Origin: Escherichia phage phiP4
Direction: 5' to 3' (one strand)
Sequence record: PP993145.1
DNA length: 64,000 bases
Positions within the stretch are counted from its first letter, which is position 1; each line of letters begins with the position of its first letter. This document shows positions 8,720 to 18,824 of this stretch, piece by piece. The position numbers were made by a program, and so were the translations under genes. A model generated the notes under the pieces. The model searched no databases, was not told where the DNA came from, and was given only the letters and a program-made list of their open reading frames with translations.

Positions 8720-8748
8720 ATTATACAGAAACTTAAGCATTTTAGCAA
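8720..8748 (-). promoter_or_regulatory. sigma70-type early promoter (TTGCTA-N17-TATAAT)
   Basis: Hexamers and 17-nt spacer read directly. Confidence 0.6.
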
Positions 8749-8856
8749 ATAAAACTTTTAATTAAAATGCCTAATCCCGTGCCAATAGCAATACAAATGA
8801 TTATAAGTATTGCTATCGCTTGTATGACTCGTTTAATAATAGCCTCAGCTATATAC

Positions 8857-9378
8857 TTAGACATTTAACATCCAGCTAGTTTTATCATGTGAGGTATACT
8901 TACCACTCATGATGTCTTCCAGACGTACTGGTGATTTTGCATATTCGACACAAACGTTAATATAACGAGGATCCCCCATTAGCTCAAAGTGAGTATGCCC
9001 ATGTAAATTCTTCTTACCTCTCAGCTCCCCATGGTGTATTGGAGCATGGGAAAGCCAGAAGTTTTTATACTTAACTAGTGATTGTACGTTATCTACAACC
9101 CCTATTAAGTCTTTGAAAGATAATCCTTCTCGTTCTAAGTCGTGGTTTCCCAAAACTAACGTAGTTCTAACATTGCCAAAGAGTTTTTCGAACTTTTCCA
9201 AACCATTTCTAGATACAAATGCGTCTCCTAAAATATAGAATACTGTACGCTTATCTTTCACGGATGTAATAGTATCCATAATAAATTCGTCATGCTCTTC
9301 CATAGTAGAGAAGATTGGTCTGAATTTAGTAATATTTGCATGCCCCAAGTGGAGATCACTCCAAAAACAAACTTTCAT
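8857..9378 (-). CDS. calcineurin-like metallophosphoesterase (173 aa)
   Basis: Motifs GDAF..., GNHD, GHTH typical of the metallophosphatase fold. Confidence 0.65.
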   Translation of the reverse strand: MKVCFWSDLHLGHANITKFRPIFSTMEEHDEFIMDTITSVKDKRTVFYILGDAFVSRNGLEKFEKLFGNVRTTLVLGNHDLEREGLSFKDLIGVVDNVQSLVKYKNFWLSHAPIHHGELRGKKNLHGHTHFELMGDPRYINVCVEYAKSPVRLEDIMSGKYTSHDKTSWMLNV

Positions 9379-10253
9379 TAAAGAACCCTCTGTACACCAC
9401 AGCTATCTTCCCGGAGTGTAGTAAATGTGGTGATTTTGCCCGTTTCATCGTTAACTTGCGCAACCGTCAACTGCCCGTTGAAAACACCGCCAGTATCAAG
9501 ATAAACACGGTTTTTATAGAGAAGTGGATAAGGAACCCCAGTATGTCCGTGAAACACGAAATCTACCCCTTTAACTTCTGGTACTTCTACCGTGTATTTT
9601 TCTTTAAATCCTGCGTAACGCTGGAAATATGGGTGTTCTTCTCCATTTTTGGACAAGTGGAAGCCTATTTCTTGGATTACATCTCGATCCCATAAATATG
9701 GCTCAACATGGTATCCAGGATGGTCATGTGGGTCTTCCTTAGCTGCTTCTACTTGCGCAATAAGATTATCCCATACTGGGGTTTCTACCTCATTACCACA
9801 TTCTTTGTATGTAAAAGGTACACCACCGTGAACAACACCAAATTTCTTACCACGATGTCTAACAGTTAGGAATATTGGCATTTTTTCAGCCATATCTTCG
9901 GCAATATTTTTAATGGTGTCTGCATCCAGCTCATTCATAGCCCACATACCACCGTTATACATCCAATTAGCCCAATCTCCCACAATCATAAATTGATCAT
10001 GATTACCACGGACACTGATAAAACGTGGATTATACAGGAATTTGGCTAAAACTTGTAGGTTTTGTGTGCCTCGGTCTATTAAGTCTCCGACACATACTAC
10101 GCAATCTTTTTTGCTATTATACCCAGCTAATTTCAACGCATCTTCTAGCAAATCATTGCATCCATGAATATCACCAACGAAAAACAAGTTGGCCTCATCC
10201 GGCACTACTAGAGTTTTATGTACATTAAATTCTTTTTTCATAATTATTCCCAA
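9378..10253 (-). CDS. serine/threonine protein phosphatase (PPP family, 291 aa)
   Basis: Motifs GDIHG, GDLIDRG, RGNHD match the PPP signature GDxHG / GDxxDRG / GNHE. Confidence 0.7.
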   Translation of the reverse strand: MGIIMKKEFNVHKTLVVPDEANLFFVGDIHGCNDLLEDALKLAGYNSKKDCVVCVGDLIDRGTQNLQVLAKFLYNPRFISVRGNHDQFMIVGDWANWMYNGGMWAMNELDADTIKNIAEDMAEKMPIFLTVRHRGKKFGVVHGGVPFTYKECGNEVETPVWDNLIAQVEAAKEDPHDHPGYHVEPYLWDRDVIQEIGFHLSKNGEEHPYFQRYAGFKEKYTVEVPEVKGVDFVFHGHTGVPYPLLYKNRVYLDTGGVFNGQLTVAQVNDETGKITTFTTLREDSCGVQRVL

Positions 10254-10517
10254 ATAACAGTTAAAATAGTTGTGCCATAGTCATTAGATAGTTGGAGAGT
10301 ATAACCCTCTTTATAGAGGGCTTTTATAGCTTCATAACTAATTTCATCACGATTAAACTGCACAAAAGAACCCCCCAATCCCCACAGAAGAAACTATTCT
10401 CTTTTTAACATACTTATATGGTTTCTTTCTGCTATTAAGAAGTGCAGCTCTATTTATCCTGGCTAAACGTTTTGCTTGTTCCGCTAACATTTAATCCTCC
10501 AATCAATTTATATAACT

Positions 10518-10546
10518 ATTATACCAAAATTTTTAGCAAAAAGCAA
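10518..10546 (-). promoter_or_regulatory. sigma70-type early promoter (TTGCTT-N17-TATAAT)
   Basis: Hexamers and spacer read directly; conserved leader element follows. Confidence 0.55.
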
Positions 10547-10587
10547 GTAAAATAAAAGCCTGATCAGCTAAGATCAGGCTTTGTTTA

Positions 10588-11871: not shown

Positions 11872-12285
11872 TTAAACTAGTTCGACATGACCGCCATCAT
11901 AGGTACCACGTTTTATTTCATCGTGGTAATCTCCCGAAGCATTCCAATCAGCACCAAAACGAAGTTTAATGCCTAGTTCTTTACCAGCTTGTTCAAAAGC
12001 CTTTTTAACTGCCCAAAATGCTTCTAAATCATTCCAATCAATTTTGCCATTAATGTATGGAGCAAAATCAAGGGCATCCCCAGTAATATGCTTGCTTTTA
12101 CTAGGATCTTTTAAAAATGAAGTACCATTAGCAATATTCTGGGCACTTTGTGCTACTGTACGAATACCCTGTACGATTGTGAAATCATATGGAGATAATT
12201 CTAAAGCTCTACGAGCTACTTTTTGTAGCTCTGGCTTAACGGTAGCTAATTGTTTTTCGCTATTTTTACCAAATTTAAAACTCAT
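11872..12285 (-). CDS. endolysin, L-alanyl-D-glutamate peptidase (M15-type zinc peptidase, 137 aa)
   Basis: His/Asp zinc-ligand motifs (HITGDALDF ... DGGHVE); size and position next to a holin-like gene. Confidence 0.65.
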   Translation of the reverse strand: MSFKFGKNSEKQLATVKPELQKVARRALELSPYDFTIVQGIRTVAQSAQNIANGTSFLKDPSKSKHITGDALDFAPYINGKIDWNDLEAFWAVKKAFEQAGKELGIKLRFGADWNASGDYHDEIKRGTYDGGHVELV

Positions 12286-12938
12286 ATTGATCTACCTAAA
12301 GATCTCTGTTGTGGGGAACAGAGCTTTGTTAAATACTCGTTAAATTTCTCAGAATCGGCTGCATCTACAGGATTATCTTTCCAAGCAATACCAATATATC
12401 CAGCATAGATATTGTTTAGATTGAAATACGGACAAGTGTATATGTAATTAAAAGTAACGTTCTTAAACGCAGGTATATTTAACCCCATATATTTATTTAC
12501 TTTTACACTTAAATCCGATGCGTAGTTAAAGCCTTCCAAGTGACGTCTATATAGCTCAGACGTTTTATTTACCGCTTTATCGGCCAAGTCAGCCCTATCT
12601 AATTGCGCATTGCTTTCCCATGCAATAATGTTAGAATAATCATTAATGGCATCGGGTTTATACTTGACGACAAAAACAGCATCCGCACCCGTTTGAGAAA
12701 AGAGTACCATGCTCTTTTCTCTAGCTACATTAGGAAAGTTATCTATCCTTTGAGTTTGAACATCCTGTAGAACCGCAGACGTGGAGAAAGTCTTTAAGAA
12801 TGACATCACCTCGCTAGTATTACTAACAAATAAGAAAATAATGACAGCAACTAAGATAGTTAGCAGACGTTTAAGAAGCGATGCTGGATCTTTCGCTTCT
12901 TGGAGCAGTACCGTTAATAATTGTAAGAACTTTTCCAA
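12282..12938 (-). CDS. holin-like membrane protein (218 aa)
   Basis: N-terminal TM segment; immediately upstream of endolysin, 4-nt overlap. Confidence 0.45.
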   Translation of the reverse strand: MEKFLQLLTVLLQEAKDPASLLKRLLTILVAVIIFLFVSNTSEVMSFLKTFSTSAVLQDVQTQRIDNFPNVAREKSMVLFSQTGADAVFVVKYKPDAINDYSNIIAWESNAQLDRADLADKAVNKTSELYRRHLEGFNYASDLSVKVNKYMGLNIPAFKNVTFNYIYTCPYFNLNNIYAGYIGIAWKDNPVDAADSEKFNEYLTKLCSPQQRSLGRSI

Positions 12939-18518: not shown

Positions 18519-18824
18519 TTACAGATCGGGGCGTTCATCTTCGAACGCTACGAAGCCATCAAATTCATCATTTGAAATACCACCAGTATAGGTGATGTCC
18601 GCAATCATCGCTTCCATTTTCCTGATCTCCGAGGTTTTCATACCTGCTTTACTATTCTTATAATATTTGCGAGGGTTCCCACACATCCAACAAGAACAGA
18701 TGCAAGGAGTAGTAGTGATAATACCTAACCGCTTAGGGCTTTCTTCATGTGGAAAGACTGTCCAATACTTCTTACGGTTGTTCTTCACACGTTGCCGGTG
18801 ATGGCGTCTTAATGCTCGATCCAC
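18519..18824 (-). CDS. Cys-rich hypothetical protein (101 aa)
   Basis: ORF track. Confidence 0.5.
   Translation of the reverse strand: MDRALRRHHRQRVKNNRKKYWTVFPHEESPKRLGIITTTPCICSCWMCGNPRKYYKNSKAGMKTSEIRKMEAMIADITYTGGISNDEFDGFVAFEDERPDL

What the first reader, a model, noticed from the sequence alone, without database searches (positions are those of the whole stretch)
8857..10253. Adjacent Ser/Thr protein phosphatase and metallophosphoesterase
Two different metallophosphatase-fold enzymes are encoded back to back in one transcription unit. This suggests early dephosphorylation of host proteins or nucleotide signals.
Basis: partly seen in the sequence, partly recalled or inferred. Interest (0 to 1): 0.45.

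Follow-up and report, generated by a model that had tools for sequence, protein, structure and literature searches.

The report
T5-type phage phosphatase and phosphoesterase genes
These are the two long-annotated early genes of T5-like phages (T5.035, a lambda-phosphatase-like enzyme, and T5.034, a small metallophosphoesterase); they are real and intact, but they are ordinary and their substrates are still unknown.

Summary
The minus strand carries two intact metallophosphoesterase-fold genes whose stop and start codons overlap (TAATG). PP is 10241..9378 (287 aa from the ATG; the 10253 limit is an upstream TTG). PE is 9378..8857 (173 aa).

The window is a Tequintavirus, about 97% nt identical to several E. 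coli and Salmonella T5-like phages. The genes are orthologues of T5.035 "NinI-like serine-threonine phosphatase" (93% aa) and T5.034 "phosphoesterase" (94% aa).

PP belongs to the lambda-phosphatase branch of the PPP family: PHROG 246 at 5.5e-93, PDB 1G5B at 2e-33, TM 0.82, all catalytic motifs present. It carries extra, mostly helical sequence that short lambda-like forms lack.

PE is a minimal aq_1665/PHROG 547-type enzyme with all metal ligands. Its nearest folds are 1XM7, then the P. putida MPE nuclease and Mre11.

The two are not recent paralogues. They lie behind one mapped early promoter with no terminator-like site between them.

PE occurs without PP in about 70 of 73 other phage loci, so the pairing is largely lineage-specific. 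A published T5 knock-down screen scored both as "Not Fit". The substrates ("host proteins or nucleotide signals") are untested. Verdict: already known, low interest.

The parts
10555..10582 (-). Rho-independent terminator-like hairpin that ends the upstream thioredoxin unit. It marks the 5' boundary of the unit holding the two genes.
   Evidence: The terminator scan gives an 11-bp stem followed by a T-run. T5's annotated terminator (record 18607-18637) maps to window 10549-10579.
10518..10546 (-). Sigma-70 type early promoter: TTGCTT, 17 nt, then TGgTATAAT (extended -10).
   Evidence: This is the homologue of T5's annotated promoter (record 18550-18624), which maps to window 10492-10566. The generic scan missed it because the -35 hexamer matches only 3 of 6 positions.
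10244..10490 (-). Homologue of T5.036 (81 aa, function unknown, PHROG 7354 mislabelled 'major head protein'). Here it is split into two ORFs, 10490..10353 and 10378..10244, by one extra G in a G-run.
   Evidence: The two ORFs match the N- and C-terminal halves of phrog_7354 (5.2e-22 and 2e-27). The window has G6 where close relatives have G5 or GGAGG.
9378..10241 (-). PP: lambda-phosphatase (NinI)-like PPP-family phosphatase, 287 aa, orthologue of T5.035. It has extra, mostly helical sequence between about residues 155 and 219.
   Evidence: PHROG 246 at 5.5e-93. PDB 1G5B at 2.2e-33 by sequence, and Foldseek E 7.6e-20 with target-normalised TM 0.82. It is 93% identical to T5. The motifs GDIHG, GDLIDRG and GNHD, plus H138, W184-x-R186 and H233, are invariant in the family alignment. 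The AF2 model has pLDDT 92.
8857..9378 (-). PE: minimal binuclear metallophosphoesterase, 173 aa, orthologue of T5.034, of the aq_1665 / PHROG 547 type.
   Evidence: PHROG 547 at 2.2e-54 and Pfam PF00149 above its cut-off. It is 94% identical to T5. Invariant residues are D8, H10, H13, D52, G77-N78-H79, H111, P113, H115, R120, H126-G127-H128, H130 and Y139. The AF2 model has pLDDT 95. Nearest structures are 1XM7 (E 1.7e-10), then 6NVO (P. putida nuclease MPE) and Mre11.
8742..8864 (-). Conserved 40-aa ORF with a long hydrophobic stretch (read by eye as one transmembrane segment). It overlaps the PE stop by 8 nt and is probably the last gene of the unit.
   Evidence: ORF list and sequence. It matches phrog_21849 over its full length (2.7e-26). 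It is intact in T5, where NC_005859 does not annotate it, and in six other Tequintavirus loci at 87-100% aa identity.
8720..8748 (-). Next promoter (TTGCTA, 17 nt, TATAAT), at the position of T5 promoter P-F30, driving the T5.033 homologue. It marks the 3' boundary of the unit, although read-through is likely.
   Evidence: The promoter scan matches 10 of 12 positions. T5's P-F30 annotation maps to window 8720-8725.

Best explanation
The finding is the T5.035/T5.034 gene pair of a Tequintavirus (T5-like phage).

Shown: two intact genes are translationally coupled. They lie behind one promoter mapped from the T5 annotation, together with a small upstream ORF (the T5.036 homologue) and a 40-aa hydrophobic micro-ORF.

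Shown by sequence and fold: PP is a lambda-phosphatase-type PPP enzyme with a complete binuclear-metal active site. It has roughly 50 extra residues relative to lambda phosphatase, predicted to be mostly helical, on either side of the phosphate-binding W-x-R motif, plus a C-terminal extension. PE is a minimal metallophosphoesterase of about 170 aa with all canonical metal ligands. It belongs to a very widespread phage family (PHROG 547, aq_1665-like) whose nearest characterised structural relatives are DNA nucleases (P. putida MPE/PdeM, Mre11), not protein phosphatases.

Inferred: both are metal-dependent hydrolases, probably Mn2+-dependent by analogy with lambda phosphatase and P. putida MPE. 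They are made early in infection as dispensable accessory, host-takeover functions. My commitments are as follows. PP acts mainly as a broad phosphomonoesterase on phosphoproteins, reversing host or defence-kinase Ser/Thr/Tyr/His phosphorylation (about 0.5). PE is a phosphodiesterase acting on nucleic-acid ends or nucleotide-derived molecules rather than on proteins (about 0.6). The two act independently, and their adjacency reflects shared early timing and lineage history rather than an obligate two-enzyme pathway (about 0.7).
For: Identity:
- The region is 95-97% nt identical to many T5-like phages; 441 phage records match.
- The T5 record annotates T5.035 as 'NinI-like serine-threonine phosphatase' and T5.034 as 'phosphoesterase' in the same arrangement. 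Amino-acid identities to T5 are 93% and 94%.

PP class:
- PHROG 246 at 5.5e-93.
- Lambda phosphatase 1G5B at 2.2e-33 by sequence and TM 0.82 by fold.
- The PPP motifs are invariant in the family alignment.

PE class:
- PHROG 547 at 2.2e-54.
- All metal-ligand motifs are invariant in 39 diverse homologues.
- The model is confident (pLDDT 95).
- Nearest folds are 1XM7, 6NVO (nuclease MPE) and Mre11. Lambda phosphatase ranks only 46th (E 0.1).
- The weak NCBIfam hits are to PdeM and SbcD.

Operon:
- Stop and start overlap, and the T5 promoter and terminator map onto the window.

Dispensability:
- T5.034 and T5.035 were both 'Not Fit' in the CRISPRi-ART screen.

Independence of the two genes:
- PE homologues lack a PP neighbour in about 70 of 73 loci outside Tequintavirus.
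- Elsewhere PE sits among replication and nucleotide-metabolism genes such as ThyX, RNR, PhoH, endonuclease I, primase-helicase and DNA polymerase, with no fixed partner.
- The two genes are about 370 nt apart in locus L008, and chee130_1-type T5-like phages list an ORF between them.
Against: No expression or biochemical data were available for this phage or for T5's two genes. The substrates are therefore entirely inferred.

Lambda-type phosphatases are promiscuous in vitro. The PP profile also touches ApaH and the Pnkp phosphatase domain, so a nucleotide or RNA-end substrate is not excluded.

The stop/start overlap argues for some selective value in co-expression. So does the recurrence of a PE-PP neighbourhood in the more distant My1-like locus L019 and in a phage outside Demerecviridae, Aeromonas phage 4_4572, a Lahexavirus.

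'Early' timing is taken from genome position and T5's annotated promoters, not measured here.
Confidence: 0.8

Rival explanations
1. The two enzymes form a functionally coupled two-step module. PE cleaves a phosphodiester, for example in a cyclic or linear nucleotide immune signal, an NAD-derived signal or a damaged nucleic-acid end. PP then removes the exposed phosphomonoester. The pair would thus inactivate a host defence signal or heal ends.
For: The stop and start codons overlap, and both genes share one promoter. The PP-PE neighbourhood is kept in the distant T5 relative L019 (PP 49%, PE 38% identity). It recurs in reversed order in the Lahexavirus Aeromonas phage 4_4572 / L011, next to Nampt and PRPP-synthetase genes. 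L031 has a weak PP-type ORF about 540 nt upstream of PE (34 bits).
Against: PE occurs without PP within 6 kb in about 70 of 73 other phage loci. PP (lambda NinI type) is common in lambdoid phages, and none of the listed lambdoid records appears among the PE matches. The two genes are about 370 nt apart in T5-like locus L008, and an extra ORF lies between them in chee130_1-type phages. There is no PADLOC or anti-defence family match. No phenotype appeared in the T5 knock-down screen.
Confidence: 0.12
2. PP is not primarily a protein phosphatase. It would act on nucleic-acid or nucleotide substrates, as a 2',3'-cyclic phosphodiesterase / 3'-phosphatase for RNA end healing (like the Pnkp phosphatase domain) or as an ApaH-like Np4N hydrolase / RNA decapping enzyme.
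For: The PP profile hits ApaH (NF001204, 2.1e-16), bacterial Pnkp (TIGR04075, 6.3e-10) and a phage 'RNA ligase' PHROG that carries this domain (phrog_8238, 1.4e-11). Structural neighbours after lambda phosphatase include a putative Ap4A hydrolase (2QJC) and the C. thermocellum Pnkp phosphatase domain (4J6O). From my own knowledge, unverified here: lambda phosphatase itself has 2',3'-cyclic phosphodiesterase activity in vitro (Keppetipola and Shuman, NAR 2007).
Against: All these hits are far below the families' curated cut-offs: 60 against 176, 38 against 750 and 36 against 223 bits. No kinase or ligase partner lies next to PP. The best matches by a wide margin are lambda phosphatase and PrpA/PrpB-type protein phosphatases.
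Confidence: 0.25
3. PE is a DNA nuclease that takes part in host-DNA breakdown or in phage replication and recombination. This would be analogous to the mycobacteriophage metallophosphoesterase Gp48, to T5 A1, or to P. putida MPE, rather than to a small-molecule phosphodiesterase.
For: After aq_1665, the nearest folds are the ssDNA endonuclease MPE (6NVO, E 3.2e-5), Mre11 and the PolD DP1 exonuclease. The weak NCBIfam hits are to PdeM (4.2e-8) and SbcD. In other phages the gene sits among replication and nucleotide-metabolism genes. A mycobacteriophage metallophosphoesterase expressed early damages host DNA and silences defence genes (PMC12287305).
Against: In T5, A1 alone is necessary and sufficient for host DNA degradation (bioRxiv 10.64898/2026.04.02.716235). 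PE fails the PdeM and SbcD score cut-offs, and at 173 aa it lacks any capping or DNA-binding domain. T5.034 knock-down has no fitness effect. Whether Gp48 belongs to the same subfamily was not tested.
Confidence: 0.3
4. One or both genes are decaying or inactive passengers: catalytically dead remnants kept only by linkage.
For: Both are dispensable in the T5 screen. The upstream gene of the same unit carries a frameshift in this window.
Against: Both ORFs are full length. Every catalytic motif is intact and invariant across homologues down to 30-40% identity. Both are kept in hundreds of T5-like genomes at 75-99% aa identity.
Confidence: 0.03

Closest known systems
Bacteriophage T5 genes T5.035 (NinI-like Ser/Thr phosphatase, 'orf5c') and T5.034 (phosphoesterase)
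   Same: These are orthologues, at 93% and 94% aa identity. They have the same order, the same strand, the same one-base stop/start overlap, and the same flanking genes: T5.033, the T5.036 homologue, thioredoxin, endolysin and holin. T5.035 has even been used as a phylogenetic marker for T5-like phages (PMC5816814).
   Different: Only minor points differ. There are point differences, and a +1 G frameshift in the upstream T5.036 homologue. The 40-aa downstream ORF is present in T5 but is not annotated in NC_005859.
Bacteriophage lambda Ser/Thr protein phosphatase (NinI, lambda-PP; PDB 1G5B) and E. coli PrpA/PrpB
   Same: PP shares the PPP signature motifs (GDxHG, GDxxDRG, GNH[ED]), the downstream His ligands and the W-x-R phosphate-binding motif. 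The fold is the same, with target-normalised TM 0.82 and about 30% identity.
   Different: PP is 287 aa against 221. About 65 residues (155-219), predicted mostly helical, replace about 17 residues of lambda-PP around the W-x-R motif, and there is a C-terminal extension of about 20 residues. PP scores far below the PrpA and PrpB equivalog cut-offs (99 against 326 and 80 against 332 bits). The genomic setting is the T5 early region, not a lambdoid nin region.
Aquifex aeolicus aq_1665 (PDB 1XM7) and the PHROG 547 phage 'phosphoesterase' family
   Same: PE matches PHROG 547 over its full length (2.2e-54). It is the best structural match to 1XM7 (E 1.7e-10, TMq 0.69, 23% identity). It has the same minimal single-domain metallophosphoesterase architecture.
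   Different: The function of this family is unknown, so the comparison adds no mechanism. The phage clade has additional invariant residues (H13, H115, R120, H130, Y139) whose roles are unassigned.
Pseudomonas putida MPE / PdeM (PDB 6NVO) and Mre11/SbcD nucleases
   Same: They share the binuclear metallophosphoesterase core and are the second and third best structural neighbours. There are weak profile hits to PdeM (4.2e-8) and SbcD (0.0099).
   Different: PE scores 32.8 against the 150-bit PdeM cut-off and 15.7 against the 77.65-bit SbcD cut-off. There is no Lhr helicase, ligase or SbcC/Rad50 neighbour and no capping domain. It resembles these enzymes in fold only.
Mycobacteriophage A10ZJ24 Gp48 metallophosphoesterase (EMBO Rep 2025, PMC12287305)
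   Same: It is an early-expressed, small phage metallophosphoesterase with the five canonical motifs and phosphodiesterase activity. It is dispensable on one host and needed on another.
   Different: Subfamily relationship to PE was not tested. Its role in damaging host DNA is already filled in T5 by A1. I use it as an analogy only.

Membership tests
PPP family, lambda-phosphatase (NinI) branch - for PP | Signature motifs GDxHG, GDxxDRG and GNH[ED] | tested here: met
   The motifs read G23-D24-I25-H26-G27, G52-D53-L54-I55-D56-R57-G58 and G79-N80-H81-D82. G23, D24, H26, G27, G52, D53, L54, D56, R57, G58, G79, N80 and H81 are invariant across 26 homologues.
PPP family, lambda-phosphatase (NinI) branch - for PP | C-terminal metal and phosphate ligands (His after motif III, the W-x-R arginine, His of GH[TS]) | tested here: met
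   H138, W184, R186 and H233 are invariant. They align with the corresponding segments of lambda-PP in the phmmer alignment.
PPP family, lambda-phosphatase (NinI) branch - for PP | Significant full-length profile and structural match to lambda-PP | tested here: met
   PHROG 246 at 5.5e-93. 1G5B at 2.2e-33. Foldseek E 7.6e-20 with target-normalised TM 0.82.
PPP family, lambda-phosphatase (NinI) branch - for PP | Mn2+-dependent phosphoprotein phosphatase activity | not testable with these tools
   This needs a biochemical assay.
E. coli PrpA/PrpB equivalogs (NF008516 / NF007425) - for PP | Score at or above the curated equivalog cut-off | tested here: not met
   The scores are 99 against 326 bits and 80.2 against 332 bits. 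PP is a relative, not an equivalog.
ApaH (Np4N hydrolase) - for PP | Score at or above the curated cut-off of NF001204 / TIGR00668 | tested here: not met
   The scores are 60.1 against 176 bits and 35.8 against 222.85 bits.
Bacterial Pnkp (kinase-phosphatase-ligase) - for PP | Three-domain architecture and score at or above the cut-off | tested here: not met
   The score is 37.9 against 750 bits, and only the phosphatase motifs match. PP is a single domain of 287 aa with no kinase or ligase gene beside it.
Calcineurin-like metallophosphoesterase superfamily (PF00149) - for PE | Motifs DxH, GD, GNH[DE], H and GHxH, and Pfam score above the gathering threshold | tested here: met
   The motif residues are D8-x-H10, G51-D52, G77-N78-H79-D80, H111 and H126-G127-H128 (G51 is conserved in at least 90% of sequences, the others invariant apart from D80). 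Pfam gives 31.2 bits against a 21.5 cut-off.
PHROG 547 / aq_1665-like minimal metallophosphoesterases - for PE | Full-length profile match and closest fold | tested here: met
   phrog_547 at 2.2e-54 over residues 1-171. 1XM7 is the top hit by sequence (0.0024) and by fold (E 1.7e-10).
PdeM / P. putida MPE (TIGR04123) - for PE | Score at or above the cut-off, and association with Lhr-ligase repair genes | tested here: not met
   The score is 32.8 against 150 bits. The neighbours are small ORFs of unknown function, PP and thioredoxin.
Mre11/SbcD - for PE | Score at or above the cut-off, a capping domain and a Rad50/SbcC partner | tested here: not met
   The score is 15.7 against 77.65 bits. PE is a single domain of 173 aa with no SbcC-like neighbour.
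Known anti-phage defence system proteins (PADLOC-DB) - both | Match to any PADLOC model | tested here: not met
   There were no hits at E <= 0.01 for PP, PE or the three small ORFs.

The most novel reading that the evidence does not exclude
PP and PE could be a cooperating counter-defence pair, kept together by selection in T5-like phages and reassembled independently in Lahexavirus next to NAD-salvage genes. PE would open a phosphodiester in a nucleotide-derived immune signal or a defence-modified nucleic acid. The insert-bearing PP would remove the resulting phosphate, or would reverse defence-kinase phosphorylation. That would explain why both are dispensable on a laboratory E. coli strain.
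Probability: 0.07. Interest if true: 0.6.

Novelty: already known. Interest (0 to 1): 0.12.

Why it matters
As it stands this matters little. The pair has been annotated in the T5 reference record and in hundreds of T5-like genomes, and nothing in this copy is unusual.

The residual value is that neither enzyme has a known substrate or biological role, although both families are very widespread in phages. PE-type matches occur in 1028 phage records and PP-type matches in 1324. Even the in-vivo role of lambda phosphatase, a standard laboratory reagent, does not appear to be established (my recollection; I did not search for this specifically).

A host-range or defence-panel phenotype for either gene would assign a function to a large block of 'phosphoesterase' annotations.

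Tried and rejected
1. Membership of PE in PdeM, SbcD/Mre11 or acc_ester, and of PP in PrpA/B, ApaH, PrpE, Pnkp or YfcE. All scores are far below the curated cut-offs, so these are resemblances only.

2. A conserved partner gene for PE across phages. I clustered the three genes on each side of PE in 73 non-Tequintavirus loci. This gave only small clusters (at most 6 loci): an AAA_33 P-loop protein, ThyX, RNR, PhoH, endonuclease I, primase-helicase and DNA polymerase. That describes a general replication and nucleotide-metabolism setting, not a fixed partner.

3. PP next to PE outside T5-like phages, tested by tblastn and by profile HMMs of both families on all ORFs. Only L019 (My1-like), L011 (Lahexavirus-like) and a weak case in L031 were found.

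4. Defence or anti-defence family match (PADLOC): none.

5. Literature searches in the held library for direct work on T5.034 or T5.035, or for phage phosphatases countering kinase-based defence. Nothing specific turned up. The relevant finds were the CRISPRi-ART 'Not Fit' calls, the T5 A1 host-DNA-degradation preprint and the mycobacteriophage Gp48 paper. The T7-kinase and NARP3 papers contained nothing on these genes.

6. Recent duplication as the origin of the pair: rejected (BLASTP E = 0.17).

7. The TTG at 10253 as the start of PP: rejected in favour of the ATG at 10241.
Full report
**What is there.** The minus strand between 10253 and 8857 holds two ORFs.
- The first ORF is listed from a TTG at 10253 (291 aa). 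The ATG at 10241 follows the stop of the upstream ORF by 3 nt. It is also the start used for the orthologous 864-nt CDS in phage T5 and Salmonella phage SE11. I therefore take PP as 10241..9378, 287 aa.
- The second gene, PE, is 9378..8857, 173 aa.
- The PP stop and the PE start share a base (cttTAATGaaa).
- A 40-aa ORF with a long hydrophobic stretch (8864..8742) overlaps the PE stop by 8 nt.

**Where the window comes from.** The region is 95-97% identical at the nucleotide level to many T5-like phages of E. coli and Salmonella. In all, 441 phage records match, and 113 of them match over at least 80% of the query. Gene order matches the T5 reference (NC_005859): T5.033, then T5.034 'phosphoesterase', T5.035 'NinI-like serine-threonine phosphatase', T5.036, thioredoxin T5.037, then endolysin and holin. 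PP is 93% and PE 94% identical to the T5 proteins. The finding is therefore the orthologue of a gene pair that the T5 record itself annotates. T5.035 ('orf5c') has even been used as a phylogenetic marker for T5-like phages (PMC5816814).

**Classification of PP.**
- Pfam Metallophos gives 62.6 bits, and PHROG 246 'NinI-like serine-threonine phosphatase' gives 5.5e-93.
- The best NCBIfam hits are the E. coli PrpA and PrpB models, but far below their equivalog cut-offs. Weaker hits go to ApaH, Pnkp and PrpE.
- Against PDB sequences, lambda phosphatase 1G5B is the clear best match (2.2e-33). It is followed by ApaH-type enzymes and eukaryotic PP1.
- An alignment of 26 homologues shows the PPP signature motifs (GDIHG, GDLIDRG, GNHD). 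The alignment also shows H138, W184-x-R186 and H233 as invariant.
- The AlphaFold model is confident (pLDDT 92). Its best structural match is 1G5B (E 7.6e-20, target-normalised TM 0.82, 30% identity), ahead of a putative Ap4A hydrolase, PP5, the Pnkp phosphatase domain, PP2A and PP1.
- Relative to lambda phosphatase and the 215-225-aa bacterial forms, about 65 residues (155-219) replace about 17. These residues are predicted to form four helices on either side of the W-x-R motif. There is also a C-terminal extension of about 20 residues.
- This long form is shared by T5-like phages and their relatives; the short forms in the alignment lack the extra sequence.

**Classification of PE.**
- Pfam Metallophos gives 31.2 bits, above the cut-off. 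PHROG 547 'phosphoesterase' gives 2.2e-54 over the full length.
- NCBIfam gives only weak, sub-threshold hits to PdeM and SbcD. The only PDB sequence hit of note is Aquifex aq_1665 (1XM7, 0.0024).
- The family is large: 976 database clusters at E <= 0.001, at least 531 viral-contig loci and 1028 phage records. The hosts include Salmonella, Escherichia, Staphylococcus, Vibrio, Acinetobacter and Bacillus, and some of the phages are jumbo phages.
- In 39 diverse members the canonical ligand residues D8, H10, D52, N78, H79, H111, H126 and H128 are invariant. So are the clade-specific H13, H115, R120, H130 and Y139.
- The model is very confident (pLDDT 95). Its nearest structures are 1XM7 (E 1.7e-10), then the P. 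putida ssDNA endonuclease MPE (6NVO), Mre11, LpxH, Rv0805 and PolD DP1. Lambda phosphatase ranks only 46th (E 0.1).
- PE is therefore a non-PPP enzyme on the diesterase/nuclease side of the superfamily.

**Are the two genes related to each other?** Only at superfamily level. Pairwise BLASTP gives E = 0.17. Profile-profile comparison aligns just motifs I-III (probability 59%).

**Transcription unit.**
- Aligning the T5 region to the window (89.5% identity) places T5's annotated terminator at 10549-10579. A terminator-like hairpin is independently found at 10582..10555.
- T5's annotated promoter maps to 10492-10566. There the window reads TTGCTT, 17 nt, TGgTATAAT at 10546..10518.
- T5 promoter P-F30 maps to 8720-8725, inside a TTGCTA, 17 nt, TATAAT match at 8748..8720.
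- No terminator-like site lies between 10555 and 8000 on the minus strand.
- The inferred unit is promoter, T5.036 homologue, PP, PE, 40-aa ORF, with probable read-through into the next promoter's genes.
- 'Early' timing follows from the position at about 14% of the T5 map, in the classical early region, and from the sigma-70 type promoters. That is established knowledge about T5 and was not measured here.

**Is the pairing meaningful?**
- I tested all 82 fetched loci for a PP-type gene near the PE-type gene, by tblastn and by profile HMMs of both families.
- All Tequintavirus loci have the pair. Outside them only three cases turned up: L019 (My1-like; PP 49%, PE 38% identity), L011 (order reversed, about 0.5 kb apart) and a weak case in L031.
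- L011 resembles Aeromonas phage 4_4572, a Lahexavirus outside Demerecviridae. There PE (gp037) and a NinI-like phosphatase (gp034) lie two small ORFs apart, beside Nampt and PRPP-synthetase genes.
- In the remaining roughly 70 loci PE stands alone among replication and nucleotide-metabolism genes, with no recurrent partner.
- In T5-like locus L008 about 370 nt separate the two genes. Chee130_1-type T5-like phages list an extra ORF between them.
- Adjacency is therefore largely lineage-specific. The Lahexavirus recurrence is the only hint of more.

**Function.**
- My searches of the held library found no direct experimental work on T5.034 or T5.035.
- The genome-wide CRISPRi-ART screen of T5 lists both as 'Not Fit', meaning knock-down caused no detectable fitness loss on the laboratory host (PMC11879866, supplementary file 16). 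This fits accessory, host-dependent genes.
- Host DNA degradation in T5 is accounted for by the pre-early metallophosphatase A1, reported as necessary and sufficient. That weakens a host-DNA-degradation role for PE.
- A mycobacteriophage early metallophosphoesterase (Gp48) has phosphodiesterase activity and is needed on M. tuberculosis but not on M. smegmatis. This shows that small phage metallophosphoesterases can be host-specific counter-defence factors. I did not test whether Gp48 belongs to PE's subfamily.
- Neither protein matches any PADLOC model.

**What I commit to.**
- PP is a metal-dependent, broad-specificity phosphomonoesterase of the lambda-phosphatase type, most likely acting on phosphoproteins (about 0.5). 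A nucleotide or RNA-end role is the main alternative (about 0.25).
- PE is a metal-dependent phosphodiesterase acting on nucleic-acid or nucleotide-derived substrates (about 0.6). A nuclease role is one sub-option (about 0.3).
- The two most likely work independently (about 0.7).
- All substrate statements are inference.

**Novelty and interest.** This is an already known, routinely annotated gene pair. Nothing about this copy is unusual apart from a frameshift in the gene upstream. Interest is low. The one non-excluded novel reading is a cooperating counter-defence pair, to which I give a probability of about 0.07.

Noticed in passing
window 10244-10490 (- strand); G-run at about 10362-10367: The T5.036 homologue (PHROG 7354, 81 aa, function unknown, widely mislabelled 'major head protein') is split into two overlapping ORFs (45 and 44 aa). 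The cause is one extra G: the window has TTGGGGGGTTC, close relatives (L001, L003) have G5, and T5 has GGAGG. This is either a real frameshift or a homopolymer sequencing error.
   Followed up: partly
window 8742-8864 (- strand): A conserved 40-aa ORF with a long hydrophobic stretch (MSKYIAEAIIKRVIQAIAILIIICIAIGTGLGILIKSFIC) overlaps the PE stop by 8 nt. It matches phrog_21849 over its full length. It is intact in T5, where NC_005859 does not annotate it, and in six other Tequintavirus loci. In L006 it is interrupted by a stop.
   Followed up: partly
L083 (Aeromonas phage 4_4572, NC_048773, record 97927-102915) and L011: In a Lahexavirus, outside Demerecviridae, a PE homologue (44% identity) and a NinI-like phosphatase (33% identity) lie two small ORFs apart in the opposite order. 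They sit directly downstream of nicotinamide phosphoribosyltransferase and PRPP synthetase genes and upstream of the primase/helicase gene.
   Followed up: partly
L034-L037 and two further loci; the ORF immediately downstream of the PE homologue (e.g. L035 3924-4334): A 136-aa P-loop protein lies next to the PE homologue in six viral-contig loci (weak Pfam AAA_33 hit, 24.2 bits, below the 27-bit cut-off). Four or five of these loci appear to be near-identical contigs. It could hint at a split kinase plus phosphoesterase end-healing pair, but the signal is small.
   Followed up: no
window 11872-12938 (- strand): The ORFs at 11872..12285 and 12282..12938 have the sizes and relative positions of the genes annotated as endolysin (T5.040) and holin (T5.041) in T5 and SE11. 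They lie about 1.6 kb upstream of the PP/PE unit on the same strand. This again shows that several annotated 'major head protein', 'tail sheath monomer' and 'capsid and scaffold protein' labels on small ORFs in this early region of RefSeq T5-like records are probably mis-transfers.
   Followed up: no
PP residues about 155-219 (window about 9585-9779, - strand): The T5-type PP has extra sequence, predicted as four helices, around the phosphate-binding W-x-R motif. The 215-225-aa short forms in the alignment lack it. The part after W-x-R (QEIGFHLSKNGEEHPYFQRYAGFKEKY) appears only in the T5-like phage sequences of the alignment, including My1, DU_PP_V and several unnamed contigs. Its role, for example substrate selection or partner binding, is unknown.
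   Followed up: partly
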